Source: Candidatus Woesearchaeota archaeon (GTDB lineage Archaea > Nanobdellota > Nanobdellia > Woesearchaeales > WJKL01). From it: 64,000 nucleotides of DNA. The stretch spans positions 326-64,325 of the forward strand of contig WJJM01000055.1 of the NCBI GenBank assembly GCA_014729675.1. Direction: 5' to 3'. This document shows, one piece after another, positions 267 to 14,189 of the stretch (its first letter is position 1; every line of letters starts with the position of its first letter). The notes under the pieces are model-generated. The model saw nothing but the letters and a program-made list of their open reading frames with translations, did not search any database and was not told the DNA's origin. A program made the translations under genes and the position numbers.

Positions 267-532
267 AAATGATGTATGTTTAATTATAAGCCATTTCATT
301 TATTTCTAAGGGAGATGTCATGTATCAGCCCAATCAGATCCATAGGGTTTCACCAATCCATTTTTCTTCCAACGGAGTTCATGCTGATTATAACTCCGGA
401 GGTTTGAGCCAACATCACCACATTCCTTTCCAGGGGCAGACTACTCTTCCAGCATTCGGCATCGGCGGCAAGCCTTCATATCAGAATGATATGAAAATGT
501 ATGGTATGGGTGGTACGCTTCTGAATAAATGA

Positions 533-1015
533 TTAGGTGTTGAATAATTCAGGATTCTGGTTCCTGAAGCTGTAGAAGGACTCGCCTATAATGATGTGAT
601 CCTGGAATACGAGTTTGACAGCTTTGGCAGCTTCAGCGATCTCTTCTGTAATTTGAGTATCATTCCTCGAAGGGGAAGAGTTCATCGAAGGATGGTTATG
701 CGCTATGATGAATGAGACAGCGTTTGCTGTCAGCACTCTTCTCAATATTTCTGGGATATCGATGTTCGCGCATCCGTTTCCTCCAGCAAACAGTTCTACA
801 GCTGAAAGCAAAGTGTTCCCTGAATCAAGCAGAAGCAACACAAATATCTCTCTGTGGCTTTCTTTGAGCCATGACAGGCATTCTGCAGCTTCTGCCGCAG
901 AGCATACTATTTTACCTATGCCTTTTGCTCTCATCTGTTTTGTGATCTTTTTCTGTTTCCATTTCAGCTTGAGTTCACATACGTGATCCATCTTTGTCCC
1001 CGAAAAAACATTCAT
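533..1015 (-). CDS. radC: RadC-like JAB/MPN domain protein
   Basis: JAMM-like motif IIAHNHPSMNSSPSRNDTQIT (HxHPxG..S..D) at the C-terminus; size fits short RadC forms. Confidence 0.8.
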   Translation of the reverse strand: MNVFSGTKMDHVCELKLKWKQKKITKQMRAKGIGKIVCSAAEAAECLSWLKESHREIFVLLLLDSGNTLLSAVELFAGGNGCANIDIPEILRRVLTANAVSFIIAHNHPSMNSSPSRNDTQITEEIAEAAKAVKLVFQDHIIIGESFYSFRNQNPELFNT

Positions 1016-1213
1016 TGCAGTCAGAATCGAGATTATGCTGCTTGCATCTCTCGCATACAGGATTCTTGTCTATCCTGCTTAAGGCCGCCTCAAGAAAAGT
1101 GTTTGTTATAGCAGTTATAGGCTTATTCAATATTTGTTTGAGCCTGTACATGGCTCTTACATTCCTTTCGAATATCTGAGGAGAATACATATTGGCTCCT
1201 TTGTTAACTCTGG

Positions 1214-2293
1214 TTAACCTCTTAGGGGCATGAGCAGGGCTTTTCTGCCTGTCTGCTCGTCATCAAAGACAATAGGGGTTGCTTCATCAAAAAAGCGTAT
1301 CGTGTCAAAGCTCATGCTGATTATGTTTGAGAATATTCTTGAGTTCACCTTTAAAGAGATGCTAAAGCTTATGTTCTTGTCTTTCATCACAAAGAAAGCA
1401 TTGTCCTTGCCTTCAACTTTAACCTTGCCTTTGCTGAAGCTCAGCTTTATCGGATAATTTTTGTCATTCACAGGAAGGTCTTCGATGCTTTGCATAAGCA
1501 TCATTTGTGCATCTTCGATTATATCCCATGCAAGCCCATCTCCATTAGGAATGACCTTTGGATAGTCAGGATATGAGCCTAAGACTTCAGTTGAATATAT
1601 GATATTGTTGAATCTCAGATAGACTCTTTCTTCAGTCTTATTTTTATGATATGCTGCCTCAACAGGAGCCTGTGTTACAAGCTCTCTTGTCTTAAGGAAC
1701 TTTGTCAACGGAACAGCAGTCTTTTTCTTTGTGAAGCTTATTTCCATGTCAGCGATGTACATCATCTTGCCGTCTGTCGCGACAATCTTGTTATTCTTTC
1801 CGTCAAAACAGATTGTATTTTTGTTTATGGTTATATCTGAATATTCTTCTGCAAACTCTCCAGCCTGAAGCAGCAGTTCCGGAAAATAGTTATCGTCAAG
1901 ACTCTGCCAGTCCAGCTTTGCAGGAATATTTGGGATATCTTCAGGCGTGATCCTCTTCAGGCTTCTCTGCATCATGATATTATCAGAAGGCATATAGATA
2001 TTGATGTCCTCTTCATCAGACTCGAAATAAAAGATGTCCTGATTCTGCTTTGCCAATGTCTTCAATTCTTCAAGAGATATGCTGAAGCTCCCTTTTCCTT
2101 CTGAATTTTCAGGGAGGTCTTCATATATCTCGGCAAAGCAGCAGGTGTTCTTTGCAACTGCTTTTAATGATCCTTTTACGCTTTGGAAACTGATAAGCTT
2201 TTGATCATCCTTCATGCTCCTGTGTATGATCCTTGATGCAGCTTTTGAGATGTTTTTCAATGTGTCTTTGTGCGTTAATAGGCTCAGGTTCAT
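1214..2293 (-). CDS. DnaN-like sliding clamp (bacterial beta-clamp family), 359 aa
   Basis: Length matches DnaN (~366 aa). Motif KIVATDGKMMYIADM lies at the position of the DnaN LVATDGHRLA motif. The N-terminus is DnaN-like (MNLSLL...KNISKAASRIIHRSMKDDQKLISFQSVKGSLKAVAKN). The neighbour is RadC. Confidence 0.55.
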   Translation of the reverse strand: MNLSLLTHKDTLKNISKAASRIIHRSMKDDQKLISFQSVKGSLKAVAKNTCCFAEIYEDLPENSEGKGSFSISLEELKTLAKQNQDIFYFESDEEDINIYMPSDNIMMQRSLKRITPEDIPNIPAKLDWQSLDDNYFPELLLQAGEFAEEYSDITINKNTICFDGKNNKIVATDGKMMYIADMEISFTKKKTAVPLTKFLKTRELVTQAPVEAAYHKNKTEERVYLRFNNIIYSTEVLGSYPDYPKVIPNGDGLAWDIIEDAQMMLMQSIEDLPVNDKNYPIKLSFSKGKVKVEGKDNAFFVMKDKNISFSISLKVNSRIFSNIISMSFDTIRFFDEATPIVFDDEQTGRKALLMPLRG

Positions 2294-2474
2294 CCTGGAT
2301 TCCTTTCAGAAAAAGGTTGACAATTGTTTTGAGTTAATCACTTGTGCATTTATTTGAAATGTTTTATGAGATGGTGAATGCATACAGATTACAGGTCTTT
2401 CAAAAATAAGCTTGACATCGTTAATTTTGGGTGTAGATTATTCATAAAGACACTTTATTTTAGGAGGGTTTCTG

Positions 2475-2714
2475 ATGTCAAATACATGGAATAATCAGAA
2501 TCACTTTCTTCAGCAGAATCAGGCTAAGAAAGAAACATTTTATACTCATGATAGTTTGACTGGTCAGGATCTTCGGATTGTTAAATCAATACAATCCAAT
2601 CAGATTGATATGTTCATCTCTGATGCTGGAACAAATGGCAGGATTCATGATCACAGCGGAATAGATCTTGTCAATAAAAGAGCCTTCAATGTCAACCGAG
2701 GACAGCAGTTTTAA
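2475..2714 (+). CDS. hypothetical Q/N-rich small protein
   Basis: Strong SD-like taggaggg 7 nt upstream of the ATG; 79 aa; overlaps the 3' end of the convergent 2692-2991 gene. Confidence 0.35.
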   Translation: MSNTWNNQNHFLQQNQAKKETFYTHDSLTGQDLRIVKSIQSNQIDMFISDAGTNGRIHDHSGIDLVNKRAFNVNRGQQF

Positions 2715-2991
2715 GTAGCTTTTTAGCTATTGTCCTTGCGTCTTCTTCAGTTAAATCTGGATTGTCCAGTCTGGCACAACCTATTACCAGGCTGTTTATA
2801 TTTTCTCCCAGATCGAACTTCACAAAGGATTGTGCAATTTCAGCTCCTTCATCCTTGGTGGTTTTTCCATCGGATATATTAACAAGAACTTTCTTCAGAA
2901 GCGTTTTTAATTTATCAGCTTTTTCATCTGAAATATGATAGTCTGAGTTGATTTCATCGAAAAGATGCTCTGCTTGTTTTTTCAATTTCAT
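2692..2991 (-). CDS. hypothetical protein, possibly TerB-like (weak)
   Basis: 99 aa; segment VLVNISDGKTTKDEGAEIAQSF resembles the TerB ADG..E motif; last gene of the 3-gene minus-strand operon headed by the GGDEF-like gene. Confidence 0.4.
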   Translation of the reverse strand: MKLKKQAEHLFDEINSDYHISDEKADKLKTLLKKVLVNISDGKTTKDEGAEIAQSFVKFDLGENINSLVIGCARLDNPDLTEEDARTIAKKLLKTAVLG

Positions 2992-3042
2992 TTTGTAATG
3001 TAAAAAGAATCTGTATTCTCCGACCCTTATCTTTCCGGCATC

Positions 3043-3243
3043 TTATGCAAATTCGTCTCTCATAACATCATGGGAGATAAGCCTACTCTTTGATTTCTTT
3101 CTTGAATCCTCTATCTCGCTTAATACATCTTCAGAAACGATTGATTCGTCTTTGATAAGCGCTTTCAGGTCTTTCATCTCCTTTCTTAGGCCGATTAGGT
3201 CTTCATGTATCTGTTCAAGTGTGATTGCAGCCATGTGTTTCAC
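3043..3243 (-). CDS. small helical protein, 66 aa, unknown function
   Basis: Lies between the GGDEF-like gene and the TerB-like gene on the same strand with short spacers. Confidence 0.4.
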   Translation of the reverse strand: MKHMAAITLEQIHEDLIGLRKEMKDLKALIKDESIVSEDVLSEIEDSRKKSKSRLISHDVMRDEFA

Positions 3244-3290
3244 CTGTTATGTATATGTTCTGAGGGTATATAAAACTTGCTGTTTCAATC

Positions 3291-3821
3291 TTATGATGCT
3301 TTTATTACATCCTTCCTATGATCCGACTTTATTTTCAGCACCTTTTCAGCCAGCTTTGAAGCTTCTCTTTCTAAGTTTTCAGAAGTGTTCCATGTGCCCA
3401 GGGCATAAGTGAATGACAGTTCATTCTTTGTTGCTGCTCTCTTCAGTTTTTCAAGAACAGCTTCTGCATCCTGCTTTTTTGTTCCTGTCACACACAGGAT
3501 CTCGTCCCCTGAGAAGAACTTTCCTATAAAGCAGTCTGATTGCCTTGTTTCTATGGAAAACATGGCTCTGAGGCGATTATTCATGGCCTCATAGCCGTTC
3601 TGCTGGTTAAGGGCATGCAGATTGTCTATATCTATGAAGATGACATGCCTTTTGATACCTCTGGGCTGTTTCCTGGCAAAATTAAGCAGTCCTGACCTGT
3701 TCAATATGCCGTAATTCTCATCAAAACTGAGATTAAGCTCTAATTTTCTGATATCTCGTTCCAATTTCTGAATTTTCTGAGTAAACCCAAAGATTCTTCC
3801 TACTATTGTCGTGAGAGACAT
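3291..3821 (-). CDS. minimal stand-alone GGDEF-like (Palm-domain) nucleotide cyclase, 176 aa, signature SGDEI
   Basis: YGILNRSGLLNFARKQ matches D-x-LTGL-x-NRR. VIFIDIDNLHALNQQNGYEAMNNRLRAMF matches the DhFKxIND..GH..GD block. CFIGKFFSGDEILCV matches RyGGDEF with G-G-D-E-F replaced by S-G-D-E-I. No sensor or partner domain is present. Confidence 0.6.
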   Translation of the reverse strand: MSLTTIVGRIFGFTQKIQKLERDIRKLELNLSFDENYGILNRSGLLNFARKQPRGIKRHVIFIDIDNLHALNQQNGYEAMNNRLRAMFSIETRQSDCFIGKFFSGDEILCVTGTKKQDAEAVLEKLKRAATKNELSFTYALGTWNTSENLEREASKLAEKVLKIKSDHRKDVIKAS

Positions 3822-3894
3822 TCTTGCCTCCTTTCGAACAGAACAGATCGCTTTATGAGTGATTTTTTAAATAAAATCTATATTAAGCCAGATT

Positions 3895-4353
3895 ATGATG
3901 TATAATATAAATGGAGTTTCCATGATTATGACACGTAAGAATTCAGACCTTATTTTTTGCAGCGCTTCTACCAAGGAGAAGCTATATTACCTTGCTATGA
4001 TAGTGCTTAAGTTTAAAATATTGAACAACATATACGTAGCTGCATATATTGGTGGAGGAGCAAGATTGTGGGCGGAGGGATTGAGAACTCATTTCAATGA
4101 CATTGATGTTTGGCTCCCAGGATATCATACAAAGTCACGGTCTTACATTGATAATCAATTAGTTGATGGAGATCCCGATGCTGAAATCCCTCCAAGAATT
4201 CATAATTTTTGCAGGAGAACAGCAACAGAAATTTTTGCTGGTATATATGCCTCTTCCATAGAGCATTTGCTCAATATTAAACTTTTTCTTAATAGAGATA
4301 AGGATCAGAAAGATATATACTTACTCAAGAAATACCTCCAAGAAAGGTCTTAG
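3895..4353 (+). CDS. minimal nucleotidyltransferase (pol-beta fold, MNT-like)
   Basis: YIGGGARLWAEGLRTHFNDIDVW fits hG[GS]x9-13 D[IV]D; 152 aa; divergent from the GGDEF-like operon. Confidence 0.4.
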   Translation: MMYNINGVSMIMTRKNSDLIFCSASTKEKLYYLAMIVLKFKILNNIYVAAYIGGGARLWAEGLRTHFNDIDVWLPGYHTKSRSYIDNQLVDGDPDAEIPPRIHNFCRRTATEIFAGIYASSIEHLLNIKLFLNRDKDQKDIYLLKKYLQERS

Positions 4354-4380
4354 ATATTCACGATTTTTAGGTATGACAAT

Positions 4381-5343
4381 ATGATCAAGGGAATTCTTGT
4401 AGAAGGGGTTGATTGTTCTGGAAAGACAACATTGGTGACAAGACTAAAGACAGATCTCAGTTCATATGGCTGGGATTCTCAGACCTGTTGTCATCGATCA
4501 GAGGATCAATTCGATAGATACCTTCAGATTTATTGCAACTCAGATCGTATCATATTCGACAGAGGTCATTTTAGTGAGATAGTATATGGAGATTTATGGA
4601 GAAAATCTCGCCACTTTCAGCAATGGGAAATTGAATGGCTAAATGAATATGTGCTGATGCATTTCATAGTCATCTGGTGCTATGCCTCAGAAGAATGCCT
4701 GAAAAAACGTTATACCCAGCAAGGTATTAACAGGAAGATAAAGGTCGATCAACTAATTCATATACAGACAGCATTTGAGAATTTATTCCAGCACAATTCA
4801 GTAATCAAATATTGTTCGGATTCTTTCGTCTCGCTAGACAAATTAGTTGATATGATATATTATCTAATCCACCAAGACAATGAAGGGATTAACGAACATG
4901 ACATTATTCCACCATTAGCCAAAGAAGCGTATTGGGGAATTATCGTCCACAGCAATATTTCTTATTTTGAAAAACTAATTGTTGAAGAAATCAAAGTACA
5001 TTTTCCTGATATATCAATTAAGATGCTTTCTAACAAAATAACAGTTGATAGTTTTCTTAAGGAATACTCTTCGACGAAAAGAACAGTATTCATTGGATGC
5101 CTCCCTCATCTTGCCTCCAATGCAAGAACTCTTAATTCTCAAGATGCCACTTTACTTCTAAATGACCTAATAAGACATAAATTTCTATGGATAATCGATG
5201 AGACAAGTAAATGTTCAGAAAATTACCTTAAATTTTATCAAGAGTTGCCATTACATAATAAAATATCTGTCTCTTCAGACAAACCAAATTCAATAAAAAA
5301 TGTAAGAAACCAAATAGCTACGCGTATTAATAGCTTTATTTAA
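4381..5343 (+). CDS. P-loop dNMP/deoxynucleoside kinase-like protein with a ~170-aa C-terminal extension
   Basis: N-terminal GILVEGVDCSGKTTL resembles the thymidylate kinase/dNK Walker A (vFEGiDGSGKTT); 320 aa; directly downstream of the MNT-like gene. Confidence 0.5.
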   Translation: MIKGILVEGVDCSGKTTLVTRLKTDLSSYGWDSQTCCHRSEDQFDRYLQIYCNSDRIIFDRGHFSEIVYGDLWRKSRHFQQWEIEWLNEYVLMHFIVIWCYASEECLKKRYTQQGINRKIKVDQLIHIQTAFENLFQHNSVIKYCSDSFVSLDKLVDMIYYLIHQDNEGINEHDIIPPLAKEAYWGIIVHSNISYFEKLIVEEIKVHFPDISIKMLSNKITVDSFLKEYSSTKRTVFIGCLPHLASNARTLNSQDATLLLNDLIRHKFLWIIDETSKCSENYLKFYQELPLHNKISVSSDKPNSIKNVRNQIATRINSFI

Positions 5344-5398
5344 TCATATAATCGGCTCTTGAACAAGTTCGTTTCTTTCTTTATGCTCATATTAGGTC

Positions 5399-6127
5399 TT
5401 ACGACAGTACTGCACTCTTTATATAAGTGACCTCTTTTTTCAACAAATCCACTTTTGCTGGGCAAGGAACGACACACTCTAAGACAAATGGAGCATATGT
5501 ATTTTTAGACAATTGTGATATATTCCGAAGGTGTAATAAATCGTGTTGAAACAAAAAACCATGATCCGTCATATCTCTTCCCAGAAAAGATATGTGAATT
5601 TCTGAGAGCATATCACGATAATTTCTCAAATAATCTGGTACGCTCATTGACGAGACCGTTAAGGCATGAGCATAGTCGAATGTTAATCTCAAAGAAGGAT
5701 AATTGTCGACAACATTTCTAATTTTATCGATTGTCTCCCAAGGACCTTTCCAGTCATCATTTTCTAATGATGGAGAAATGTCTGGATCTATTATTGATCT
5801 AAGATTATTGATTGTATTTCTGTGAAAAACAACATTCTTTGCTTTTATCAACAAATATAATTCAATAATCTTATCCATTATTTGTTTTGTCTTTCTATTC
5901 CGTTTGTAAGTTATATCCTTCCATGGCGCATGTATCGAATTAAAATTCAATTTTTGAAGATACCTAACATTAGATTTCGATATTTTAAAATCAAGAAGGT
6001 ATTTTGAATATGCAAAAGACATCTCTATACCTTGCGGATTATATCGTTTAATTAATTTAATCATTTTATTTCGATCATCTGTGATTTGATATAGGACTCC
6101 GGTTGATATGCAAATAGGGTTTTTCAT
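5399..6127 (-). CDS. hypothetical protein, possibly a TIM-barrel (xylose-isomerase-like) fold
   Basis: 242-aa ORF with no strong motif; fold guess is weak. Confidence 0.4.
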   Translation of the reverse strand: MKNPICISTGVLYQITDDRNKMIKLIKRYNPQGIEMSFAYSKYLLDFKISKSNVRYLQKLNFNSIHAPWKDITYKRNRKTKQIMDKIIELYLLIKAKNVVFHRNTINNLRSIIDPDISPSLENDDWKGPWETIDKIRNVVDNYPSLRLTFDYAHALTVSSMSVPDYLRNYRDMLSEIHISFLGRDMTDHGFLFQHDLLHLRNISQLSKNTYAPFVLECVVPCPAKVDLLKKEVTYIKSAVLS

Positions 6128-6259
6128 ATAACTGGTAACTATGGTGCAATTTAACTAATTTTCTATTAAAATAGGCATTCACTGCTCCTTTCGCTTTAAA
6201 ATAAAAAAAGGAGCCTGCAAAGGCTCCTTGGTTGAAGATAGGCGGGAGAAACTGCTGTC

Positions 6260-6415
6260 TTATTCTATACTGTTATTGTCTTCATCCTTTATTATGTAGA
6301 TGTTCTCCGGCTGTAATGCTTCGCAGTGCTCTTTTACCTCTTGAGCTTCTGTTAGGTCATCAAATGTTTCTTCCTGCTCAGTCTCAACAGGAATGAATGA
6401 GAGAAGTTTGTACAT
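6260..6415 (-). CDS. tiny acidic protein (51 aa), paralog A
   Basis: MYKLLSFIPVETEQEETFDDLTEAQEVKEHCEALQPENIYIIKDEDNNSIE. Clear paralog of the protein encoded at 7475-7645; the shared block PVE..E..FE...EA.E.KEH.E.L.PENIYII.DED is conserved. Confidence 0.5.
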   Translation of the reverse strand: MYKLLSFIPVETEQEETFDDLTEAQEVKEHCEALQPENIYIIKDEDNNSIE

Positions 6416-6489
6416 GCATGCCTCCTTTCGTAATTACATTATCCGAATAATTGATATAATTGATGTAATGATTATGTTGGGAGATTATT

Positions 6490-7209
6490 ATGATCGAGAT
6501 TGTTCTTTATTTCGCGATATGGAAAATGATCTATGATTCGATGTTTTTGTTTGAAGTATATGCAATACATGGAAGCATCGACAGATACCAAACTCAGTAT
6601 AAAAATGAACTTGGTATTGATAAGAACTCTTTCCCACTGCCAATAAAAAAGATATTGTCGCGCTTTCTGGGATCGATAGTCTTTATTATTTTGGCTAGGG
6701 TCTTAACAATCAGCGTAAAGCAAAAAAATATCTACTCATTGCTGATTGCAGTTTCTTATGTAATGTCTGCTTTCGGTGCTGCGCTTATTACTAATAAGAA
6801 TGAAAGATCTTTGGGCATTATTGATTTCAGTTGGTATTCCATGATGGCAATTGCCTGTGGAGGCCTTATATTCTGCCAGTATCTTCCTGATTATCTCAAT
6901 GTCAATATTCCAGCAGACTTCTCAAAGGTCTATTATATTGCTTATCATAATGAGACTCAGAATCTTTTGCAAAAAACGGTTGACGCGATGTTGATTGTCG
7001 GTTCAGTCCTGGCTGTCTGCATGACAATAATATGGGGGAAAGATATTTGGAGACCAAAAGATGCAGTGGAAAGGCTTCAATATGTAAAAACAGCCTGCAT
7101 GTCAATGAGGATGGTCATAGCATATTTTTCTATATGCCTTGCTGTCTTTTATTGGCTTGGCCTTCCCTTGTACAATAAGATGGTTGTGTTAAGGGAATTT
7201 ATTAAATGA
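6490..7209 (+). CDS. polytopic membrane protein, unknown function
   Basis: 239 aa with multiple hydrophobic segments. Confidence 0.55.
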   Translation: MIEIVLYFAIWKMIYDSMFLFEVYAIHGSIDRYQTQYKNELGIDKNSFPLPIKKILSRFLGSIVFIILARVLTISVKQKNIYSLLIAVSYVMSAFGAALITNKNERSLGIIDFSWYSMMAIACGGLIFCQYLPDYLNVNIPADFSKVYYIAYHNETQNLLQKTVDAMLIVGSVLAVCMTIIWGKDIWRPKDAVERLQYVKTACMSMRMVIAYFSICLAVFYWLGLPLYNKMVVLREFIK

Positions 7210-7443
7210 TTACTTTTCATATTTCAAGATAGCTTCCAATTCAAGAAAATACTTTGAAAGCTCTTCTTTGTTTTTCTCCCATTGCTTAAAACAGTCAGTA
7301 GCTCTTCGGCCAACTCTTGAATCCATGTCAACCTCTCCTATTTCATAGATCTTTTTTGCAATTATTTCCTGGCCTTTTACAAGATGGAGGAGTATCTGAA
7401 GCATGGCTTGTTTTTCTTTTGCCTGTAGTTTGTTATCATCCAT
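7210..7443 (-). CDS. hypothetical 77-aa protein
   Basis: Immediately downstream, on the same strand, of paralog B of the tiny acidic protein. Confidence 0.4.
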   Translation of the reverse strand: MDDNKLQAKEKQAMLQILLHLVKGQEIIAKKIYEIGEVDMDSRVGRRATDCFKQWEKNKEELSKYFLELEAILKYEK

Positions 7444-7474
7444 ATTATCACCTTTCTAAAATTATGATGAAGGG

Positions 7475-7645
7475 TTATAAATAATTTTCTCTTTTACTCA
7501 GGCTGTCTTCATCCATTATTATGTAAATGTTTTCTGGATGTAATGTTTCAAGATGCTCTTTTTCTTCCTCTGCTTCCTGTATCTCCTCAAATGCTTCAGG
7601 ATTCTCAGGTTCAACAGGCATATATGGAATGATTCTGTATGGCAT
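7475..7645 (-). CDS. tiny acidic protein (56 aa), paralog B
   Basis: MPYRIIPYMPVEPENPEAFEEIQEAEEEKEHLETLHPENIYIIMDEDSLSKRENYL. Nucleotide similarity to 6260-6415 is visible. Confidence 0.5.
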   Translation of the reverse strand: MPYRIIPYMPVEPENPEAFEEIQEAEEEKEHLETLHPENIYIIMDEDSLSKRENYL

Positions 7646-7720
7646 TGATCGCTCCTTTCTATTTTAAATAAGTGAGAATTTCGCTGGCGTGGGTTTATCT
7701 ACCGAAAACGCCTGTTTGTG

Positions 7721-7895
7721 TTGAATTCAGGCAGTACACAGCCGGAATCGGCTGAATTTACTTTATCGAATCAACGATAAAGATGCTGTCTCAAATCAAT
7801 GAAACAGTTTTCAAAACATCTGCCAAATCAATGGCATTTTTGCATTGCTTTAATCAAAAAGCAGCTTTGGTTTTGAAACGATTTGTTGAAATCTA
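7721..7895. repeat. 175-bp direct repeat, copy 1 (left boundary of the candidate integrated element)
   Basis: About 95% identical to 12839-13012; the two copies start with ttgaattc[a/g]ggcagtacac and end with gatttgttgaaatcta. Confidence 0.9.
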
Positions 7896-8024
7896 TTCAA
7901 TATATGGGTGGAAAGAAGTTATAAAGATTATGGGGCATGGGTGGTGAAAGATAATGACTCATGTTCATCTAAACTTGATTTTTGACAAAATCATGTTATA
8001 ATTATTATCAAAACAAATAATCGA

Positions 8025-8627
8025 GTGTTTTATAAAGAGGTATTTCCTTCTCTGCATATGTCAGAGAGACATAATAAAGGAGTTAGAAGGCTTATGGGTG
8101 CAGCCTTTCTTGCTATACTGTCGCTTCCATTTATGGATATTCCCTTTAACTACTGCAAATTTCTTTATAACAATAATAAAGTCAGAAAAAACGACAATAA
8201 TATATCATATACTGAAGGTATCGATAAGTGGGGTTTAAAGGGCTACAAGATATTCAGGCGTGACAGCAAAAAAACAAAAGTGCAGCATTTTGAATATGAT
8301 TCATTTTTAACACCAAAAGTAGTGTATTCTGCAACAGACTGCGATAACGATGGTTTAGTGGACATTGTTGATTCTGGCAGTACTGTTCCTTATTTTAGAA
8401 GTAATTTAAATGAACGCAAAGAATATCGCAATAAATTATTAAAGATGTCAATCTTTGGGACACTAAGCAAAAACAAATATAAGAGGGAATTTGGTAAGAT
8501 CTGCCATGATGTCGCTACAGATCCTAATAGGACAAGATATATATCTGAGCTCGAAGAAATATTCAAGAAAGCTGATAATGAGCTTGAACATTTTAATAAG
8601 ATGACTTCATATTCTGATAATAACTGA
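8025..8627 (+). CDS. hypothetical protein with a DxDxDG Ca-binding-like motif
   Basis: DCDNDGLVDIVDSG motif; the true start may be an internal Met (MSERHNK or MGAAFLAIL). Confidence 0.45.
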   Translation: MFYKEVFPSLHMSERHNKGVRRLMGAAFLAILSLPFMDIPFNYCKFLYNNNKVRKNDNNISYTEGIDKWGLKGYKIFRRDSKKTKVQHFEYDSFLTPKVVYSATDCDNDGLVDIVDSGSTVPYFRSNLNERKEYRNKLLKMSIFGTLSKNKYKREFGKICHDVATDPNRTRYISELEEIFKKADNELEHFNKMTSYSDNN

Positions 8628-8659: not shown

Positions 8660-9925
8660 ATGAGTAAATCTATTTTTGGTATTATCTTCCCAGGTATCTT
8701 GCTAATTTTGACTGTTTTGGTTGTTGGAGGTACAATAACAAATATGTCAATCTTTGAGCAAAGAAAAAAGATAACATGCGACCAAATTAGATTACTGATA
8801 TTGAATGTTGCTAAGAACAGATCAGGAGCATATTTTAAGATGTTGGTAGACTTACACGACAATCTTAAAGAAGAAAAAGAAAAGTTGCCAGATGAATATA
8901 AATCACTCTTGGCGGATGCAAAAAAGAATATTGAAGAATATAAGAAATATGATAAAGAAAATAAATATGCTGCCGCTAAACTTTATCGACTTCTTATAGA
9001 TCAGATTGGGCTTTTTAAAGAACGATATCATCGTCTTGGTATTTATTTAGCTGACAAAGCAAAATTAATCGAGAATGAATCAAACTGTCTTGACATAATA
9101 AATAAATCTTTGAAAAATGGTGTCTGGCCATTTGATGAAGATGGTAATATAGAGAGTTCGTTTACAGAGACACCTGAATGGATAAAAAGTATCATTAGAA
9201 AACAGACAAAAAAGTTCAATCCAAATAGCAGTTTGAAAGATGTGTTAAACAAGGAAAATAAAGAATGTAACCAATTTAATTATATGACTGGATTTGGGTG
9301 CATAACTTCTTATTTATATGCACTTGGCAAGGTTAATTTAATATTAGTTTATTACTTATTATGCAGCTTATATGGGGCGATAATTCTCGTTACCTTGGAG
9401 AACAAGAAACCCTTTATTGGGCGGATCCTATTGTATGCAATATCTGGAGGGGCTTGTATGCTATTTTATATAAAAAGCATTCAAGTATTTATTGTAGATA
9501 TGCAGGATAGCACAGGCATAGAATTAGTTTTCACACATCATTTATTGGGGTTACTTGCGTTTATCATAGTGTTGGCCAATCCATTTCAGATAATGAGGTT
9601 TAGATTGAAGAATATAATTAGTGTTTTGACAAAGAATAAAACACTAATTATCCTGTTGGCTGCTTTTTTATTGATCTGCGGATGCAACAGCAATAGGAAA
9701 TCTATACAGGTAAAGAAAAAGAAATTTATTGGCATGAAATCAAAGGAAATAGTAGACGTTGTAGTTCCAGAAAAAGGAAATGAGGATTTAAGAGACAAAA
9801 GAGATCAGGAAATAAGTGAAGAAGAAAAAGCTCTTGATAAAAAGATCGATCAGAGACTTGATGAAGATATAAATAATGCTCCCGAATGGTTGAAACCGCT
9901 CGGAAAGAGTATAAAATCAAAATGA
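8660..9925 (+). CDS. membrane protein with an N-terminal TM, a coiled-coil region and a C-terminal multi-TM domain
   Basis: 421 aa with strong hydrophobic stretches; lysine/glutamate-rich tail. Confidence 0.55.
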   Translation: MSKSIFGIIFPGILLILTVLVVGGTITNMSIFEQRKKITCDQIRLLILNVAKNRSGAYFKMLVDLHDNLKEEKEKLPDEYKSLLADAKKNIEEYKKYDKENKYAAAKLYRLLIDQIGLFKERYHRLGIYLADKAKLIENESNCLDIINKSLKNGVWPFDEDGNIESSFTETPEWIKSIIRKQTKKFNPNSSLKDVLNKENKECNQFNYMTGFGCITSYLYALGKVNLILVYYLLCSLYGAIILVTLENKKPFIGRILLYAISGGACMLFYIKSIQVFIVDMQDSTGIELVFTHHLLGLLAFIIVLANPFQIMRFRLKNIISVLTKNKTLIILLAAFLLICGCNSNRKSIQVKKKKFIGMKSKEIVDVVVPEKGNEDLRDKRDQEISEEEKALDKKIDQRLDEDINNAPEWLKPLGKSIKSK

Positions 9926-9941
9926 CTCAGGGAACAAAAAA

Positions 9942-9965
9942 AGCCCAGAAGGTTAGTTCTGGGCT
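9942..9965 (-). terminator. hairpin followed by a T7 tract on the minus strand; intrinsic-terminator-like, probably terminating the 10022-10654 gene
   Basis: agcccagaa-ggttag-ttctgggct forms a 9-bp stem; a7 on the plus strand reads as U7 on the minus transcript. Confidence 0.45.
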
Positions 9966-9975
9966 TTCAAATGAA

Positions 9976-10029
9976 GAAACTTCTATTAGAAGGGAAACTT
10001 CTATTAGAAGGGAAACTTCTATTAGAAGG
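9976..10029. repeat. 3 x 18-bp perfect tandem repeat gaaacttctattagaagg, each unit containing the palindrome cttcta-t-tagaag
   Basis: Read directly. The last unit overlaps the stop codon of the minus-strand OMP-like gene. The array lies between convergent genes. Confidence 0.9.
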
Positions 10030-10654
10030 TGTAGCCTAATCCAAGAGAAAAATAGACATTGTTTAAAGGATTCCCGATATCAGAAGTCATCGAACTGTTT
10101 GTGGCATTTTCTGACAGTTCCAGTTCAGTACCTCCGGCAGAGATGCCGTATCCCAGCCTCAGGTCAAGATAGAAACTGCTTTTATCCAGTATGGCATAAC
10201 CTGCAAAGATATCGACTGATATGGGCTTGTGCTCTCCTGTAACTGTATAGCCGCTGTTTTTAACTTCTGCTTCTATGCTGGAGCCTGAGATTCCCATGCC
10301 GGCGAATGCCCCAACAGAGAAAACATAAGATCCCCAGACGCTCCAGCTTATTACGCTTGTATCTGCATCAACACCAAATGATTCTACCTCGTCTTCAGCA
10401 TCAGAAGCGATATCTTTCATAAGAAGGCTCCCGACACCGCCGCCGAAATATATCTTGGACTCGCTTTCCATCTCATAATACATCCCTCCTGAAAGGAGGT
10501 CTTGGAGCCTTGTATCATAGCCTCCTGACAGCCAGAAGCCGTATGTTCCTGCATTTGGGTTTTTCTTTTTTTCTTTCTCATCTCCGGAAAGAAGATTTGC
10601 TGAAAAGGTAAATGCAATTAATATCACCAACAGATATCTGCTAAAATTAATCAT
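10022..10654 (-). CDS. bacterial-type outer-membrane beta-barrel-like protein (OmpA/OmpW-like) with a signal peptide
   Basis: N-terminal hydrophobic signal; Gly-rich alternating pattern; C-terminal ...YFSLGLGYTF ending in an aromatic Phe, typical of bacterial OMP beta-barrels. Confidence 0.5.
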   Translation of the reverse strand: MINFSRYLLVILIAFTFSANLLSGDEKEKKKNPNAGTYGFWLSGGYDTRLQDLLSGGMYYEMESESKIYFGGGVGSLLMKDIASDAEDEVESFGVDADTSVISWSVWGSYVFSVGAFAGMGISGSSIEAEVKNSGYTVTGEHKPISVDIFAGYAILDKSSFYLDLRLGYGISAGGTELELSENATNSSMTSDIGNPLNNVYFSLGLGYTF

Positions 10655-10668
10655 AAAGATCCTTTCAA

Positions 10669-11562
10669 TTATTCTTTGGTTAAGGTTATTTCATTGCTGT
10701 AGAACCAGCCTGAATTTCCCATAGCATCACCTGCAAAAACAGCAATCCGTACTTTTTCCCAGGTGTAATAGGCCGATGAGTCTGAATCAAATTGCCGAGA
10801 ACCGGAAAGGGAACCGCTTGATGAAGTTAGGGTGTTGTACTCATTTGCAACAGAGCCCCACTGATCCAATCCATCATAGCGTGGATAATATTGCAGATAT
10901 ACAGAAGCTTCTCCCGGTGTATCTTCCAGAGTGTAGTTAAAGCTGTAACCCAGCTCAATAGAATAATCGCTGGAAGATACAGTTGTGTCAGTTCCTGAAG
11001 CAGAAAGATTAGTGATTGAGAATGACGCTCCTCCGCCACCTCCGCCACCGCTGAAGCTGGTTATATTAAATGATCGGGATTGTTCATGATCTGCTGTTGC
11101 CGGATTTGTATCAGTGGTCTGCAGCTGGAATGTTGAAGAAGTCCACACTCCTTCATCAGGCTTCCTTATCACTTCAAGATAATATGTGGCAGAAGCTTCG
11201 TATTCAATATTCCCAAATACGCATTCATAAGTAGAGGAAGATGTAAAACGTCCTTCATCATCTGATGAAGCAGTTCTGATTCTGTAAGATTTATATAAAT
11301 TTACTCTGTAATGGTAAGTATCTGTATTGTATGAACTGTCAACATTATTCAGCAAGACGGCAAGATCAACTTCAAAGCTTGAACTGCTGCCTGAAGTGCC
11401 GCCATCGGTGGTCCAGTCTGTGCTGACGCCCGGATCTGTAGAAGCAGTTCCAGTGTATCCGCCTGAGTCCTCATCTTCTCCGCATCCAAGAAAAAGCATT
11501 ACAGTACAGCATAACAGCAAGAGAAGGCTGAAATTTACGATATAAGATGTATTTTTCTGCAT
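10669..11562 (-). CDS. secreted lipoprotein-like Ser/Thr/Gly-rich protein
   Basis: Signal peptide followed by LFLGCGED (lipobox-like), a G8 stretch and S/T-rich sequence; upstream in the same operon as the OMP-like gene. Confidence 0.55.
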   Translation of the reverse strand: MQKNTSYIVNFSLLLLLCCTVMLFLGCGEDEDSGGYTGTASTDPGVSTDWTTDGGTSGSSSSFEVDLAVLLNNVDSSYNTDTYHYRVNLYKSYRIRTASSDDEGRFTSSSTYECVFGNIEYEASATYYLEVIRKPDEGVWTSSTFQLQTTDTNPATADHEQSRSFNITSFSGGGGGGGASFSITNLSASGTDTTVSSSDYSIELGYSFNYTLEDTPGEASVYLQYYPRYDGLDQWGSVANEYNTLTSSSGSLSGSRQFDSDSSAYYTWEKVRIAVFAGDAMGNSGWFYSNEITLTKE

Positions 11563-11679: not shown

Positions 11680-12435
11680 TTATGTTTGGTATAATCTTTT
11701 CATTGCCTTCTCACCGTCCTTGCTCATGACCTTTGCGTATATTTCAGTTGTTGCGATGCTTGAATGCCCAAGCTGCTGCTGGACAAATCTCAGGTTCCAG
11801 CTGCTAGCCTTGAGCAGATGGGTCGCGAACGTGTGCCTCAGACAGTGTATGCTGTAATTTCTGTTTAGTTTCGCCCTGCTCATGCTTCTCTTGACTGACG
11901 CCTGCAATGCTCTTCTTGTCATGCTCTTTCCGGTCCTGTTGGAATAAAATACAGGAGCATCTTTTCTTAACGGTTCCCCGTTGTCCTGCTTCCAGCTTTT
12001 GAAAGCTTGCAGCGGCTCCTTCAGTTGGTCTCCGCAGATAACAGTCCTTGCCTTGGAAAACTTGCCTTTCCTTACATAGATCTGTATGCAGCTGTTCTTC
12101 TCAGAGATGTCCTGCCATACGAGATTCGTTATCTCCATCACCCTCAATCCGGAATTCAGGGCCAGCTCCACCAAGAACCAGTCATAAACTCGTGATCTGA
12201 GAAGCGAGTTGTCTTTCTTTCTCAGAAGGTTTCTCCTGAGCTTTTTTACCTCTTTGCTGTCCAGATATTTGTCCTGCTGAAGGGTCCACCTGAAGCCTTT
12301 TTTTGTTTTGCTCTGTTTGGGATTGATGCCTGAAACTGCTTCAGCCACCTTACTTCTGATAGATTCAGGAGTGGCTTCATTTCCAATAACAAAAACATTT
12401 ACAGATATCCTGTTTGAAGATTCTTGGTGCAGCAT
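11680..12435 (-). CDS. tyrosine recombinase / integrase (XerC/D-like, short form)
   Basis: C-terminal RHTFATHLL...LGHSSIATTEIYAKV matches the R..H-x-x-R...Y catalytic box. Confidence 0.85.
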   Translation of the reverse strand: MLHQESSNRISVNVFVIGNEATPESIRSKVAEAVSGINPKQSKTKKGFRWTLQQDKYLDSKEVKKLRRNLLRKKDNSLLRSRVYDWFLVELALNSGLRVMEITNLVWQDISEKNSCIQIYVRKGKFSKARTVICGDQLKEPLQAFKSWKQDNGEPLRKDAPVFYSNRTGKSMTRRALQASVKRSMSRAKLNRNYSIHCLRHTFATHLLKASSWNLRFVQQQLGHSSIATTEIYAKVMSKDGEKAMKRLYQT

Positions 12436-12838
12436 TTTTTACCGATTCTGAAACTGGTAGCGGACAGGATTTGCATATTTCATGAGTTATGTGTAATCAC
12501 CCACGCCATGCTGAATTAGCAATACAGCTCTTCATCCTCTTGTCAAAGAACAGATGGGAAATAGAATCATTCCCAACAAATCAGAAATTTGATTTGTGTT
12601 TCCATCTATCAAAAAATATTTATATCAAACCATCTATCCCTAAATATCTCTGAGATCAGAGGTTCAATCCTGCGAAATATATTTGCACATTTCTCATGAA
12701 ATGTGAAAAGGTTATGTAGTTATATTAATCTGTTTTGGGGATTTGTCAACTGTTTTTTATGATCACAAAGTATCATTTCAGGCAAAATAACAGAAATCTG
12801 TATGTTATGGGTGCTTCTATCCAAAATACCCTTCATTT

Positions 12839-13012
12839 TTGAATTCGGGCAGTACACGGCTGGAATCAGCCGAATTTGCTTTATCGAATCAACGATAAAG
12901 ATGCTGTCTCAAATCAATGAAACAGTTTTCAAAACATCTGCCAAATCAATGGCATTTTTGCATGGCTTTAATCAAAAAGCAGCTTTGTTTTGAAACGATT
13001 TGTTGAAATCTA
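12839..13012. repeat. 175-bp direct repeat, copy 2 (right boundary)
   Basis: See copy 1. The ORF-track call 12802-12993 lies inside this repeat and is probably not coding. Confidence 0.9.
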
Positions 13013-13832
13013 ATAAATATTTTAGGTATGAGAATTTATAAAGATGATGAAGCACACATGCATGAATCTATTTCCAGATAAATGCCGAATAAATTAATCT
13101 CCCCCAAACTCGACAAGCGAGTTTTTAGAGTTAATTTAATCCCTTCGCTTTGCTCAGGCTTCGGGCTGTATTCTGCTGCGTGAGTATTGATTTTTGTATT
13201 TTGAAAGAGATAATCATTGCTCTTTCGTGCTTTACGGAATATGACCATCAAAACTTATAATCCTCTTATCTTTCCCCCAAAAATAGGCAGGGGGGATAAG
13301 ATAAGAGGGAGTTGCGACAGCCAGGAAAGAGAAAAGAGGGCATCCTCAGTGTGTTAACGCAGGTTAACTTATCATTCATTTTGCTTATTTAATCATTTGA
13401 AAACAAGCTCATAAACCTTCTTTAATTTCTGAGAACAAAAACTTTCAAGCTGCAAGATCTGAGATGGATTGACATCAGTAAGTGATTGACGTTTGTTTTC
13501 AGACAAAATATCGACGACAAACACATTGCCCACTGTTCAATCACCGTCGATAAATTTATATATATGAGGGTATTTCTATAATAAAGAATGAGCCAATGGG
13601 CGGTTAGACCCAAAGGCTCGGAGAAAACCAAAAATGCCCGACAAAAGACAAATCAGCTCCCCAGAGAGTAATAATTCTGGGAGATATAAAAAGATTTCGG
13701 AAGCAGAGACCAGACAACTACGCGAAGAAAAGATCAACGTAGATCAATGCTGGAGTGATTATCATGCTATCGGCATTGAACTGGACTCAGGAGAGATAGA
13801 TCCAGATAAAACATATTTGGAGGTGTGATGAA

Positions 13833-13997
13833 ATGGAAGAATTAACAGAACGTATGGAATGCGTTGAAGTATGGGTCTGCAGAGTTAATGGAAAAAGATA
13901 TTGCTGCGACTGCGGCAGAGAGATTGCCGAGGAGGATATCGTGGGAAAATCCGGGACATACAGAAAATCGATAAATATATTAAGGGGTGTGCCTTAG
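13833..13997 (+). CDS. possible small Cys-rich (zinc-ribbon-like) protein, 54 aa
   Basis: MEELTERMECVEVWVCRVNGKRYCCDCGREIAEEDIVGKSGTYRKSINILRGVP. Weak; lies in an otherwise non-coding 1.2-kb stretch. Confidence 0.25.
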   Translation: MEELTERMECVEVWVCRVNGKRYCCDCGREIAEEDIVGKSGTYRKSINILRGVP

Positions 13998-14189
13998 ATA
14001 AAAATAAAAACAAAGAAACAGAGTATGGCACTGAAGCCGACTTCTGACGTTATGAATAGGATCTAAGAATTTTAAGCTTAGATATCCATAAGATGGATTA
14101 GATGATACCTTGGATGACATATATATATGCCAATATAAATATAATTTTTAGAAAGATATATAAACCAATATTTACTCATATTTTTTACA

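What the first reader, a model, noticed from the sequence alone, without database searches (positions are those of the whole stretch)
10022..11562. Bacterial-type outer-membrane beta-barrel-like protein and lipoprotein carried as cargo in an archaeal genome
The 210-aa protein has a signal peptide, a Gly-rich amphipathic pattern and a C-terminal ...GLGYTF ending in Phe. That is the classic signature recognised by the bacterial BAM machinery. Its upstream partner has a lipobox-like LFLGCGED and a G8/ST-rich region. Archaea normally lack outer membranes, so this pair is either a recent bacterial transfer riding on the integrase element or evidence of an unusual envelope, for example in a host-associated DPANN-like cell.
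Basis: partly seen in the sequence, partly recalled or inferred. Interest (0 to 1): 0.6.

Follow-up and report, generated by a model that had tools for sequence, protein, structure and literature searches.

The report
Bacterial-style membrane barrel in DPANN archaeon
A 5-kb integrase-carrying element in the genome of a DPANN (Woesearchaeota) archaeon carries a gene for a protein that looks like a small bacterial outer-membrane beta-barrel, next to a lipoprotein gene; this is unusual cargo for a cell type not known to build such barrels, but it is a single case with no evidence yet that it works there.

Summary
ORFs 10022-10654(-) (210 aa) and 10669-11562(-) (297 aa) are real and form an operon downstream of a tyrosine recombinase.

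- **Host:** the contig is archaeal. It carries archaeal SRP RNA, archaeal RNase P RNA, Topo VI and RLI, and NCBI names it Candidatus Woesearchaeota.
- **Barrel:** the 210-aa protein has a signal peptide, amphipathic beta-strands and a C-terminal Y-x-F. With an 8-sequence alignment AlphaFold gives a ~10-strand all-beta model (pLDDT 76). All top-50 PDB matches are bacterial outer-membrane barrels or designed transmembrane barrels (OmpA, OprF, Ail, TtoA). It matches no Pfam or NCBIfam family.
- **Family:** it belongs to a tiny unannotated family of about 7 members among billions of proteins. The two relatives with assignable context lie on bacterial contigs, and two relatives sit beside serine-recombinase modules. 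Identity to the window protein is at most 33-40%, so no recent donor is visible.
- **Element:** the pair lies in a 5.1-kb segment flanked by a ~250-nt direct repeat. A second archaeal contig has the same integrase and repeat with different cargo.
- **Lipoprotein:** lipobox proteins are reported as native to DPANN, so this gene is not a bacterial signature.

Best reading: foreign surface-protein cargo on an archaeal integrative element. Function in the archaeon is unproven.

The parts
7690..7937 (.). Left copy of the ~250-nt direct repeat (attL-like). It holds four palindromes centred on AATCAA.
   Evidence: the repeat finder D1+D4; pairwise alignment with ~130 nt identical; four-copy alignment with L011; palindrome scan
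8025..8627 (+). Cargo ORF of 200 aa with one hydrophobic segment (residues 23-41). No family match; GC 0.33.
8660..9925 (+). Cargo ORF of 421 aa, a multi-pass membrane protein. An in-frame internal start at 9593 would give a 110-aa lipobox protein (…LLICGC…). GC 0.32.
9939..9968 (-). Terminator-like hairpin (12-bp stem) followed by a T-run, ending the lipoprotein-barrel operon.
   Evidence: sequence
9976..10029 (.). Three perfect tandem copies of an 18-nt unit, each containing the palindrome CTTCTATTAGAAG. The array overlaps the stop codon of the barrel gene and sits at the junction between the low-GC and high-GC halves of the element.
   Evidence: 0.26 matches expected by chance; it occurs nowhere else in the window
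10022..10654 (-). 210-aa secreted protein with an outer-membrane beta-barrel-like fold, from a new small family (MBD3249513.1).
10669..11562 (-). 297-aa orphan lipobox protein (signal peptide, Cys27, acidic S/T/G-rich mature part, G7 linker) (MBD3249514.1).
11680..12435 (-). 251-aa Xer-like tyrosine recombinase with a short N-terminal domain. Candidate catalytic residues R98, H197-x-x-R200, H224 and Y233 are present.
   Evidence: 76%-identical 251-aa homologue in L011
12808..13054 (.). Right copy of the direct repeat (attR-like), 370 nt upstream of the integrase start. Repeat and integrase are also contiguous in L011.

Best explanation
A ~5.1-kb integrative element sits in the chromosome of a Woesearchaeota (DPANN) archaeon. 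It consists of a Xer-like tyrosine recombinase plus four membrane or secreted cargo genes, bounded by a ~250-nt direct repeat.

Two of the cargo genes form an operon: a lipobox protein followed by a small secreted protein that folds like a bacterial outer-membrane beta-barrel (~10 amphipathic strands, C-terminal Y-x-F). The barrel gene belongs to a very rare, unannotated family. Its relatives with assignable context lie in bacteria, two of them beside recombinase modules. The most likely history is therefore cross-domain capture of a bacterial mobile-element surface gene.

Inferred mechanism in the ancestral bacterial setting: Sec export, recognition of the C-terminal beta-signal by BAM, and insertion into the outer membrane as a surface-modifying accessory protein (adhesion, exclusion or receptor masking), comparable to the barrel proteins carried by phages.

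In the archaeon, the signal peptides should still direct Sec export, and the lipobox protein can probably be processed by the native DPANN lipoprotein pathway. No assembly route for the barrel is known, so it is most likely an unadapted passenger, or at best a self-inserting or surface-associated protein.

Shown here: gene structure, archaeal host, repeat-flanked integrase module with variable cargo, barrel-like fold, bacterial relatives, atypical codon usage. Inferred: direction of transfer, mobility, export, and function.
For: - Archaeal host: archaeal SRP RNA and RNase P RNA; Topo VI, RLI, RpoD and archaeal-type SecDF; NCBI name Candidatus Woesearchaeota, all on one 65,250-nt contig.
- Element: a direct repeat at 7690-7937 and 12808-13054 with exactly two copies in the window.
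- Sister element: L011, an independent archaeal MAG contig, has a 251-aa integrase about 76% identical, preceded by the same repeat. It also has a homologue of the window's right flank (13500-14051). Similarity ends at the integrase stop codon, where a different lipobox-like gene follows.
- Foreign composition: barrel, lipoprotein and integrase genes have GC 0.43-0.455 against a mean of 0.385 (sd 0.027) for the window's other ORFs. Each fits core synonymous codon usage worse than all 32 core genes (z = -2.6, -3.5, -3.0).
- Barrel fold: AF2 with an 8-sequence MSA gives pLDDT 76.4 and pTM 0.67, with about 10 long strands. All top-50 Foldseek PDB hits are bacterial outer-membrane barrels or designed transmembrane barrels (OmpA E = 1.7e-4, OprF TM 0.57, Ail, TtoA, NspA, CarO). 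BFVD hits are phage-encoded OMP barrels. Strand faces alternate hydrophobic and polar, with z = 3.3. The C-terminal aromatic-x-F is kept in 6 of the 7 full-length sequences.
- Bacterial relatives: P0004 is from a Puniceicoccaceae bacterium, seen on 41 contigs, in an island with a large serine recombinase, DUF2924, OLD-TOPRIM/UvrD and Abi_alpha genes. P0007 is adjacent to a DUF2924 gene. P0005 is next to a YkuD L,D-transpeptidase.
- Gene order: the closest relative, P0003, has a canonical lipoprotein gene directly upstream.
Against: - No curated OMP family is matched, and the profile finds no solved OMP by sequence.
- The MSA has only 8 sequences.
- The direction of transfer rests on about 6 relatives, only two with an assignable taxonomic context. 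The organism of the closest one (P0003, a 1.36-kb contig) is unknown.
- No empty integration site was found, so mobility is inferred.
- Both ORFs are intact, and the operon has good translation and termination signals. That fits a functional gene as well as a passenger.
- Whether BAM-like or other assembly genes are absent from the rest of the genome was not testable.
Confidence: 0.6

Rival explanations
1. The barrel is a working envelope component of the archaeon itself. In this reading the Woesearchaeote has a second (outer) membrane or a bacterial-like lipid layer, into which the barrel inserts with the lipoprotein as partner.
For: Both ORFs are intact, with SD motifs and a terminator. Double membranes have been reported for some archaea, including DPANN-affiliated ARMAN (PMC4243693). 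The core genome in the window encodes a bacterial-type PlsX and a membrane-anchored SurA_N/PrsA-like chaperone domain fused to a thioredoxin. SecDF is present.
Against: The gene sits on a variable-cargo mobile element with non-host codon usage. It is the only archaeal member of its family among billions of proteins. The sister element lacks it. No Omp85-type gene was seen in the ORFs scanned in the window. The SurA_N-like protein has a monoderm PrsA/PpiD-type architecture.
Confidence: 0.1
2. The barrel, with or without the lipoprotein, is an effector aimed at a partner cell. The episymbiotic archaeon would secrete it, and it would insert into the outer membrane of a diderm bacterium (or another host) as a pore or anchor.
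For: DPANN are largely host-dependent (general knowledge). All four cargo proteins are secreted or membrane proteins. Small 8-10-strand barrels can fold into bilayers without BAM in vitro (general knowledge of OmpA, OmpX and PagP).
Against: There is no direct evidence. Relatives in bacteria look like ordinary self-targeted OMPs with signal peptides. No toxin, delivery or adhesion domain was detected. The partner of this archaeon is unknown.
Confidence: 0.07
3. The protein is not a transmembrane barrel but a secreted soluble or surface beta-rich protein. In this reading the OMP matches reflect generic up-and-down beta-meander similarity in a model built from a shallow alignment.
For: TM-scores are only 0.35-0.57 with rmsd 6-8 Å. 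There are no profile hits to OMP families. Two family members weakly hit streptavidin, a soluble 8-strand barrel (E = 0.11). Several central strands (96-142) lack a clean hydrophobic face.
Against: Every one of the top 50 PDB hits is a membrane barrel, none soluble. Strands 37-47, 67-75, 145-155, 161-171 and 200-209 have one face that is 75-100% hydrophobic. The C-terminal aromatic-x-F and the Cys-free, Gly/Ser/Tyr-rich composition are typical of OMPs.
Confidence: 0.12
4. Assembly or binning artefact: the barrel-lipoprotein segment comes from a bacterium and was joined in silico to archaeal sequence.
For: The source is a metagenome-assembled genome. GC and codon usage of the three-gene block differ from the core. 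The segment is flanked by a repeat that could mislead an assembler.
Against: The block is bracketed on both sides by sequence also found in an independent archaeal contig: the integrase plus repeat on one side and the second repeat copy on the other. The two repeat copies differ (89% and 79% in their outer parts), so they are not a collapsed repeat. The integrase itself is GC-richer than its host in L011 too (0.429 against 0.36).
Confidence: 0.05

Closest known systems
Small bacterial outer-membrane beta-barrels (OmpA transmembrane domain, OprF N-domain, Ail/OmpX/Lom, NspA, Thermus TtoA, CarO)
   Same: Signal peptide, size of about 185 mature residues, antiparallel amphipathic strands, Gly/Ser/Tyr-rich and Cys-free, C-terminal aromatic-x-Phe. 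These are the best structural matches.
   Different: No sequence-profile membership in any of these families. The model has about 10 strands plus an acidic helix in one loop rather than 8 strands. TM-scores are only 0.35-0.57. The gene is encoded in an archaeon.
Outer-membrane and lipoprotein accessory genes ('morons') carried by phages and other mobile elements (for example lambda lom and bor; phage-encoded OMP barrels in BFVD)
   Same: A small OMP-type barrel, and here also a lipoprotein, carried as non-essential cargo next to a recombinase. Structural hits to phage-encoded OMP barrels at E ~ 1e-4. Two family relatives lie beside serine-recombinase/DUF2924 modules. The lambda comparison is from general knowledge.
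   Different: No sequence relationship. No family member was found in viral contigs, phage records or plasmid records. The host here lacks a known outer membrane.
[quoted passage not shown] 2022, PMC9668308)
   Same: A tyrosine recombinase next to repeat-bounded variable cargo in a DPANN archaeon. Cargo is enriched in signal-peptide proteins, and bacterial-to-archaeal transfer is proposed.
   Different: The integrase lacks the IntI-specific extra domain. R-to-HxxR spacing is 99 aa, as in Xer proteins. TIGR02249 scores 94.5 bits against a cut-off of 265, and only the C-terminal 70 aa align to IntI4. The repeats are 185-250 nt and near-identical, unlike 60-140-nt variable attC sites. The integrase lies inside the repeat-bounded unit.
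Xer/dif-type site-specific recombination (XerA, XerC/D, XerH) and elements that integrate at dif-like sites
   Same: The best sequence matches of the integrase are XerA, XerC/D and XerH. The repeat contains palindromes with a 6-nt central spacer, for example ctttatcgAATCAAcgataaag, which resembles arm-spacer-arm core sites.
   Different: All scores are below the equivalog cut-offs (XerA_Arch 122.8 bits against 220). The N-terminal domain is about 40 aa shorter. There are four different palindromes sharing one spacer within an ultra-conserved 185-nt block, which is not known for dif. Recombination was not tested.
Archaeal lipobox lipoproteins (AliA/AliB pathway; PMC12462473)
   Same: The 297-aa protein has a Sec-type signal peptide with a lipobox-like FLGC. 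DPANN are reported to be rich in predicted lipoproteins and to encode AliA.
   Different: The mature part is an orphan. F at position -3 is non-canonical. AliA presence in this genome was not checked.

Membership tests
Bacterial outer-membrane beta-barrel proteins (BAM substrates; OmpA-like TM PF01389, OMP_b-brl PF13505, OmpW, Ail/Lom) | N-terminal Sec signal peptide with a type-I cleavage site | tested here: met
   Basic n-region (R6), hydrophobic segment in residues 8-23, and a probable cleavage after LLSG24 that aligns with ASA/YA/SG sites in the homologues. Judged by inspection; no SignalP run.
Bacterial outer-membrane beta-barrel proteins (BAM substrates; OmpA-like TM PF01389, OMP_b-brl PF13505, OmpW, Ail/Lom) | An even number of amphipathic antiparallel strands forming a closed barrel with a hydrophobic outer face | tested here: inconclusive
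Bacterial outer-membrane beta-barrel proteins (BAM substrates; OmpA-like TM PF01389, OMP_b-brl PF13505, OmpW, Ail/Lom) | C-terminal beta-signal ending in an aromatic residue (usually Phe), with an alternating hydrophobic pattern | tested here: met
   The protein ends in ...VYFSLGLGYTF. Six of the 7 full-length family sequences end in (Y/W/F)-x-F.
Bacterial outer-membrane beta-barrel proteins (BAM substrates; OmpA-like TM PF01389, OMP_b-brl PF13505, OmpW, Ail/Lom) | Significant profile match to a curated OMP family | tested here: not met
   No Pfam hit for any of the 8 family sequences. The best NCBIfam hit is NF049866 (TDE1717 outer-membrane barrel) at 15.7 bits against a cut-off of 135, in 1 of 8 members. 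The PDB profile search finds no OMP.
Bacterial outer-membrane beta-barrel proteins (BAM substrates; OmpA-like TM PF01389, OMP_b-brl PF13505, OmpW, Ail/Lom) | Host has an outer membrane and an Omp85/BamA insertase; the protein localises to the outer membrane | not testable with these tools
   Only 64 kb of the genome is available. None of the ~37 larger ORFs scanned with Pfam matched an Omp85 or POTRA family. Localisation needs experiments.
Lipobox lipoproteins (bacterial Lgt/Lsp or archaeal AliA/AliB substrates) | Signal peptide with a lipobox and an invariant Cys at 15-35 (PROSITE PS51257-style rule) | tested here: met
   The rule, coded from memory, matches MLFLGC with Cys27 and K3. Position -3 is F rather than L/V/I, so the match to the narrow consensus quoted in PMC12462473 (abstract) is imperfect.
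Lipobox lipoproteins (bacterial Lgt/Lsp or archaeal AliA/AliB substrates) | A lipidation and signal-peptidase pathway encoded in the genome | not tested
   No AliA (arCOG02177) profile was available and only 64 kb was visible. The literature reports AliA in DPANN 'with some gaps'.
Integron (IntI + attI + attC cassettes) | Integrase with the IntI-specific additional domain around patch III | tested here: not met
   The protein is 251 aa. R98 to H197-x-x-R200 spacing is 99 aa, as in Xer proteins (my count from the sequence). TIGR02249 scores 94.5 bits against a cut-off of 265. Only residues 172-241 align to IntI4.
Integron (IntI + attI + attC cassettes) | Cassettes bounded by short, variable, hairpin-forming attC sites upstream of intI | tested here: not met
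   The boundaries are ~250-nt repeats with a 185-nt core that is 97-100% conserved even between genomes. In the window the integrase lies between the two copies. IntegronFinder was not run.
Tyrosine-recombinase integrative element (Xer-like) | Catalytic R-K-H-R-H/W-Y residues and a Phage_integrase domain | tested here: met
   PF00589 at 112.6 bits; phrog_216 integrase at 4e-42. R98, H197, R200, H224 and Y233 are read from the sequence.
Tyrosine-recombinase integrative element (Xer-like) | Direct repeats (attL and attR) flanking the element, and an empty site in related genomes | tested here: inconclusive
   Flanking repeats are present, and a sister element has the same integrase and repeat but different cargo. 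No empty site was found. The only other genome hit also carries two repeat copies.

The most novel reading that the evidence does not exclude
The Woesearchaeote actually uses the barrel. It would be exported and assembled into a membrane without BAM, either in an outer layer of the archaeon's own envelope or in the outer membrane of a partner cell, with the co-transcribed lipoprotein as its partner. That would be the first functional bacterial-type transmembrane beta-barrel in an archaeon.
Probability: 0.1. Interest if true: 0.85.

Novelty: new member of a known kind. Interest (0 to 1): 0.4.

Why it matters
Transmembrane beta-barrels assembled by Omp85/BAM are a hallmark of diderm bacteria and their organelle descendants, and to my knowledge none is established in Archaea. 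An intact, signal-peptide-bearing, beta-signal-bearing barrel gene on an archaeal mobile element gives a concrete test case for two questions. The first is how far cross-domain gene flow into DPANN archaea reaches. The second is whether an archaeal cell, or a cell it attaches to, can take up such a protein without BAM.

If the gene is only a passenger, it still documents a small Xer-like integrase element that shuttles surface-protein cargo in DPANN. It also defines a new, very rare family of OMP-like barrels that travels with recombinase modules in bacteria.

Tried and rejected
- **Single-sequence AF2:** pLDDT 33, useless.
- **Word-indexed homology searches:** both proteins found only themselves. 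The exact-sequence contig look-up for the barrel found nothing.
- **Curated profile libraries:** Pfam, NCBIfam, PHROGs and PADLOC gave no family for the barrel, the lipoprotein, ORF200 or ORF421. The PDB sequence-profile search gave only chance hits, such as a Fab heavy chain at E = 0.9.
- **Collection scans with the family profile:** Genome contigs gave nothing. Viral contigs gave nothing. Metagenome contigs only re-found the Puniceicoccaceae locus.
- **tblastn of the barrel** against plasmid and phage records: no match.
- **Integrase and repeat core in viral contigs:** nothing.
- **Rfam on the element:** only a sub-threshold hit on the terminator.
- **Internal duplication in the lipoprotein:** none.
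- **Homology among the three lipoproteins** (window, L011, L012): limited to the signal peptide.
- **Integron interpretation:** considered and rejected; see the membership tests.
- **P0006** (958 aa, repetitive) was treated as a spurious low-complexity hit.
Full report
**1. The observation**

They lie 14 nt apart. Each has a Shine-Dalgarno-like motif, and the pair ends in a 12-bp hairpin plus T-run at 9968-9939. A 251-aa tyrosine recombinase gene (11680-12435, PF00589 E = 2.3e-32) lies 117 nt upstream on the same strand.

NCBI holds the three proteins as MBD3249513.1, MBD3249514.1 and MBD3249515.1, from a 65,250-nt contig of 'Candidatus Woesearchaeota archaeon'.

**2. Is the genome archaeal?**

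Yes. Rfam finds archaeal SRP RNA (152.5 bits, gathering 96.5) and archaeal RNase P RNA (115.3 bits, gathering 84) at 30.8 kb and 19.7 kb. The core of the window encodes the following:
- topoisomerase VI A and B
- RLI/ABCE1
- an Rpb3-type RNA polymerase subunit
- a Toprim-domain protein (DnaG-like) and HerA
- a presenilin-type protease
- archaeal-type SecD and SecF

**3. What the 210-aa protein is**

It has one N-terminal hydrophobic segment and no other TM helix. The mature part has no Cys and is Gly/Ser/Tyr-rich. Its beta-type hydrophobic moment exceeds shuffles (z = 3.3; 3 of 2000).

No Pfam family matches. The best NCBIfam hit is a spirochaete outer-membrane barrel family at 15.7 bits, against a cut-off of 135.

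The word-indexed search of 5.8 billion proteins returned only the protein itself. An exhaustive phmmer search of 1.84 billion representatives found three full-length relatives: P0003, P0004 and P0005, at E = 5e-12 to 5e-7. A profile search added P0007, P0008 and a fragment.

The family members share:
- a signal peptide
- the motifs GGYDxRLGD and DxR(L/I)GYG
- an (aromatic)-x-F C-terminus, in 6 of the 7 full-length sequences

A single-sequence AlphaFold run was useless (pLDDT 33). With the 8-sequence alignment the model reaches pLDDT 76.4 and pTM 0.67, with about 10 long antiparallel strands and one acidic helix in a loop.

Foldseek against the PDB returns only bacterial outer-membrane barrels or designed transmembrane barrels in the top 50. 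These include OmpA TM (E = 1.7e-4), OprF (TM 0.57), Ail, Thermus TtoA, NspA and CarO. Against viral models it returns phage-encoded OMP barrels.

**4. Where the relatives live**

- **P0004** is annotated from a Puniceicoccaceae bacterium (Verrucomicrobiota) and is seen on 41 contigs. It sits in an island with DUF2924, a large serine recombinase, an Xre-type HTH protein, an OLD-TOPRIM ATPase plus UvrD helicase pair, and Abi_alpha.
- **P0007** is adjacent to a DUF2924 gene.
- **P0005** neighbours a YkuD L,D-transpeptidase, a peptidoglycan enzyme.
- **P0008** comes from a sponge metagenome.
- **P0003**, the closest relative (40% in the local phmmer match, 33% over the alignment), is on a 1.36-kb contig of unknown organism. 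A canonical lipoprotein gene (…VISGCGGEQ…) lies 72 nt upstream of it.

The lipoprotein-then-barrel gene order therefore recurs in the nearest relative, but the mature lipoproteins are not detectably homologous. No other element protein has a relative in any of these loci.

The window protein is at most 33% identical to any member over the alignment. The family is old and sparse, and no recent donor is visible.

**5. The element**

A ~250-nt direct repeat (7690-7937 and 12808-13054, with about 130 nt identical) brackets 5.1 kb. That segment contains ORF200, ORF421, the barrel, the lipoprotein and the integrase.

A 22-nt palindrome from the repeat core found one other record among 185,579 species genomes. 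This is L011, a 9.8-kb contig binned as 'Methanosarcinales archaeon' with GC 0.36. L011 carries:
- a 251-aa integrase about 76% identical to the window's
- the same repeat directly upstream of that integrase, contiguous with it as in the window
- a second repeat copy 1.25 kb away, with a dCTP-deaminase-like gene between the two copies
- a homologue of the window's right flank (13500-14051)

Similarity stops at the integrase stop codon. The next gene in L011 is a different lipobox-like protein (…SIFCVGCGSGGG…). The integrase and repeat therefore form a conserved module with variable cargo.

The integrase is Xer-like and lacks the IntI-specific insertion, so this is not an integron in the sense of PMC9668308.

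The barrel, lipoprotein and integrase genes have GC 0.43-0.455, against 0.385 ± 0.027 for the window's other ORFs. Each fits core synonymous codon usage worse than all 32 core genes (z = -2.6, -3.5, -3.0). ORF200 and ORF421 are AT-rich (0.32-0.33), so the element is mosaic. No empty site was found, so integration is inferred rather than shown.

**6. The lipoprotein**

It satisfies a PROSITE-style lipobox rule with Cys27 and is otherwise an orphan. It has a single hydrophobic segment, net charge -25 and no internal duplication.

Lipobox proteins and the candidate lipidation enzyme AliA are reported as prevalent in DPANN (PMC12462473), and the sister element has a lipobox-like gene in the same slot. 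The lipoprotein is therefore not evidence of bacterial origin.

**7. Interpretation**

The best-supported reading (confidence about 0.6) is that a bacterial mobile-element surface gene was captured as cargo by a Xer-like integrative element resident in Woesearchaeota. That gene encodes an OMP-type barrel of a new small family and is now paired with a lipobox protein.

In bacteria the expected pathway is Sec export followed by BAM-dependent insertion signalled by the C-terminal Y-x-F. This is an inference from established OMP biology.

In the archaeon, Sec export is plausible, but no barrel-assembly route is known. The gene is therefore most likely an unadapted passenger.

Rivals, with my confidence in each:
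- a functional component of an unusual double envelope (0.1; double membranes are reported in ARMAN and a few other archaea, PMC4243693)
- an effector for a diderm partner (0.07)
- a non-membrane beta protein (0.12)
- an assembly chimera (0.05; argued against by archaeal-type sequence on both sides of the block)

**8. Novelty and score**

Mobile-element-borne OMP barrels and bacterial-to-DPANN gene transfer are both known, so this is a new member of a known kind. The unusual point is the host domain. Evidence for function in the archaeon is absent, and the case is a singleton from a MAG. Interest is 0.4.

The most novel reading not excluded is that the barrel is actually assembled and used by the archaeon (probability about 0.1). 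That would be highly interesting (0.85).

Noticed in passing
window 7743-7925 and 12861-13042; L011 4637-4838 and 5874-6108: The ~185-nt core of the element-flanking repeat is 97-100% identical between two genomes whose adjacent integrase genes are only 74% identical at the nucleotide level. It contains four consecutive palindromes that all share the 6-nt centre AATCAA. Hairpins with that centre and perfect arms of at least 5 bp occur nowhere else in the 64 kb. A fifth hairpin (CAGCCGgaatCGGCTG against CGGCTGgaatCAGCCG) differs between the copies by two compensatory double changes. RNA folding gives z = -3.5 and -4.65, and there is no Rfam match. It could be a set of Xer-type core sites or an unknown structured RNA that serves as the integration target.
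   Followed up: partly
window 9976-10029: Three perfect tandem copies of an 18-nt unit, each containing the palindrome CTTCTATTAGAAG. The array overlaps the barrel gene's stop codon, so each copy repeats '...TTC TAA'. It sits exactly where the AT-rich and GC-richer halves of the element meet and is unique in the window. It may be a protein-binding array or a cassette junction.
   Followed up: partly
window 36945-37991 (+): A bacterial-type phosphate acyltransferase PlsX (Pfam FA_synthesis 185.6 bits; TIGR00182 206 bits, just under its cut-off) lies in the archaeal core region with host-like composition. It hints at fatty-acid phospholipid metabolism in this DPANN archaeon.
   Followed up: no
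window 39415-40470 (+): A core-genome protein with a Lys/Asn-rich tail, one TM helix, a SurA_N/PrsA-like chaperone domain (37.1 bits, above the cut-off) and a C-terminal CPHC thioredoxin. It looks like a membrane-anchored extracytoplasmic foldase of bacterial flavour.
   Followed up: partly
window 1-7650: The whole left flank looks like a variable island. It holds RadC (533-1015), a PADLOC candidate defence protein PDC-M70B (5399-6127, E = 1.8e-14) and a P-loop protein (4381-5343). Codon usage is atypical throughout (z -1 to -3). Two paralogous small acidic ORFs (6260-6415 and 7475-7645, minus strand) lie just outside the left repeat.
   Followed up: partly
window 50581-52148 (+): A BsaWI-like restriction endonuclease plus an N6/N4 DNA methylase pair with low GC (0.31-0.34) sits inside the core region. 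It is probably another acquired module.
   Followed up: no
L011 4940-5614 (between the two repeat copies): In the sister contig, the 1.25-kb segment between two repeat copies next to the integrase carries a dCTP-deaminase-like gene with a C-terminal hydrophobic tail, so it may be a defence-type cassette. The contig is binned as Methanosarcinales but has GC 0.36. It shares intergenic motifs with the Woesearchaeota window, so the binning may be wrong.
   Followed up: partly
window 9593-9925 (+), inside ORF 8660-9925: An in-frame internal ATG would give a 110-aa protein with a second lipobox-type signal peptide (MRFRLKNIISVLTKNKTLIILLAAFLLICGCNSN). The 421-aa ORF may therefore be two genes, or a membrane protein with a chance motif.
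   Followed up: no
L001/L002 8777-12834: In the Puniceicoccaceae island, the barrel homologue P0004 sits between an Xre-type HTH gene and an OLD-TOPRIM ATPase plus UvrD-helicase pair (Gabija-like). A large serine recombinase with DUF2924 lies upstream and Abi_alpha downstream.
   Followed up: no
window 13634-13997 (+); L011 2478-2871 (-): Two small ORFs, one a CxxC...CxxC zinc-ribbon protein, lie just outside the right repeat. They are conserved (77% nt) next to the integrase-repeat module in L011. They may belong to the element rather than to the host flank.
   Followed up: no
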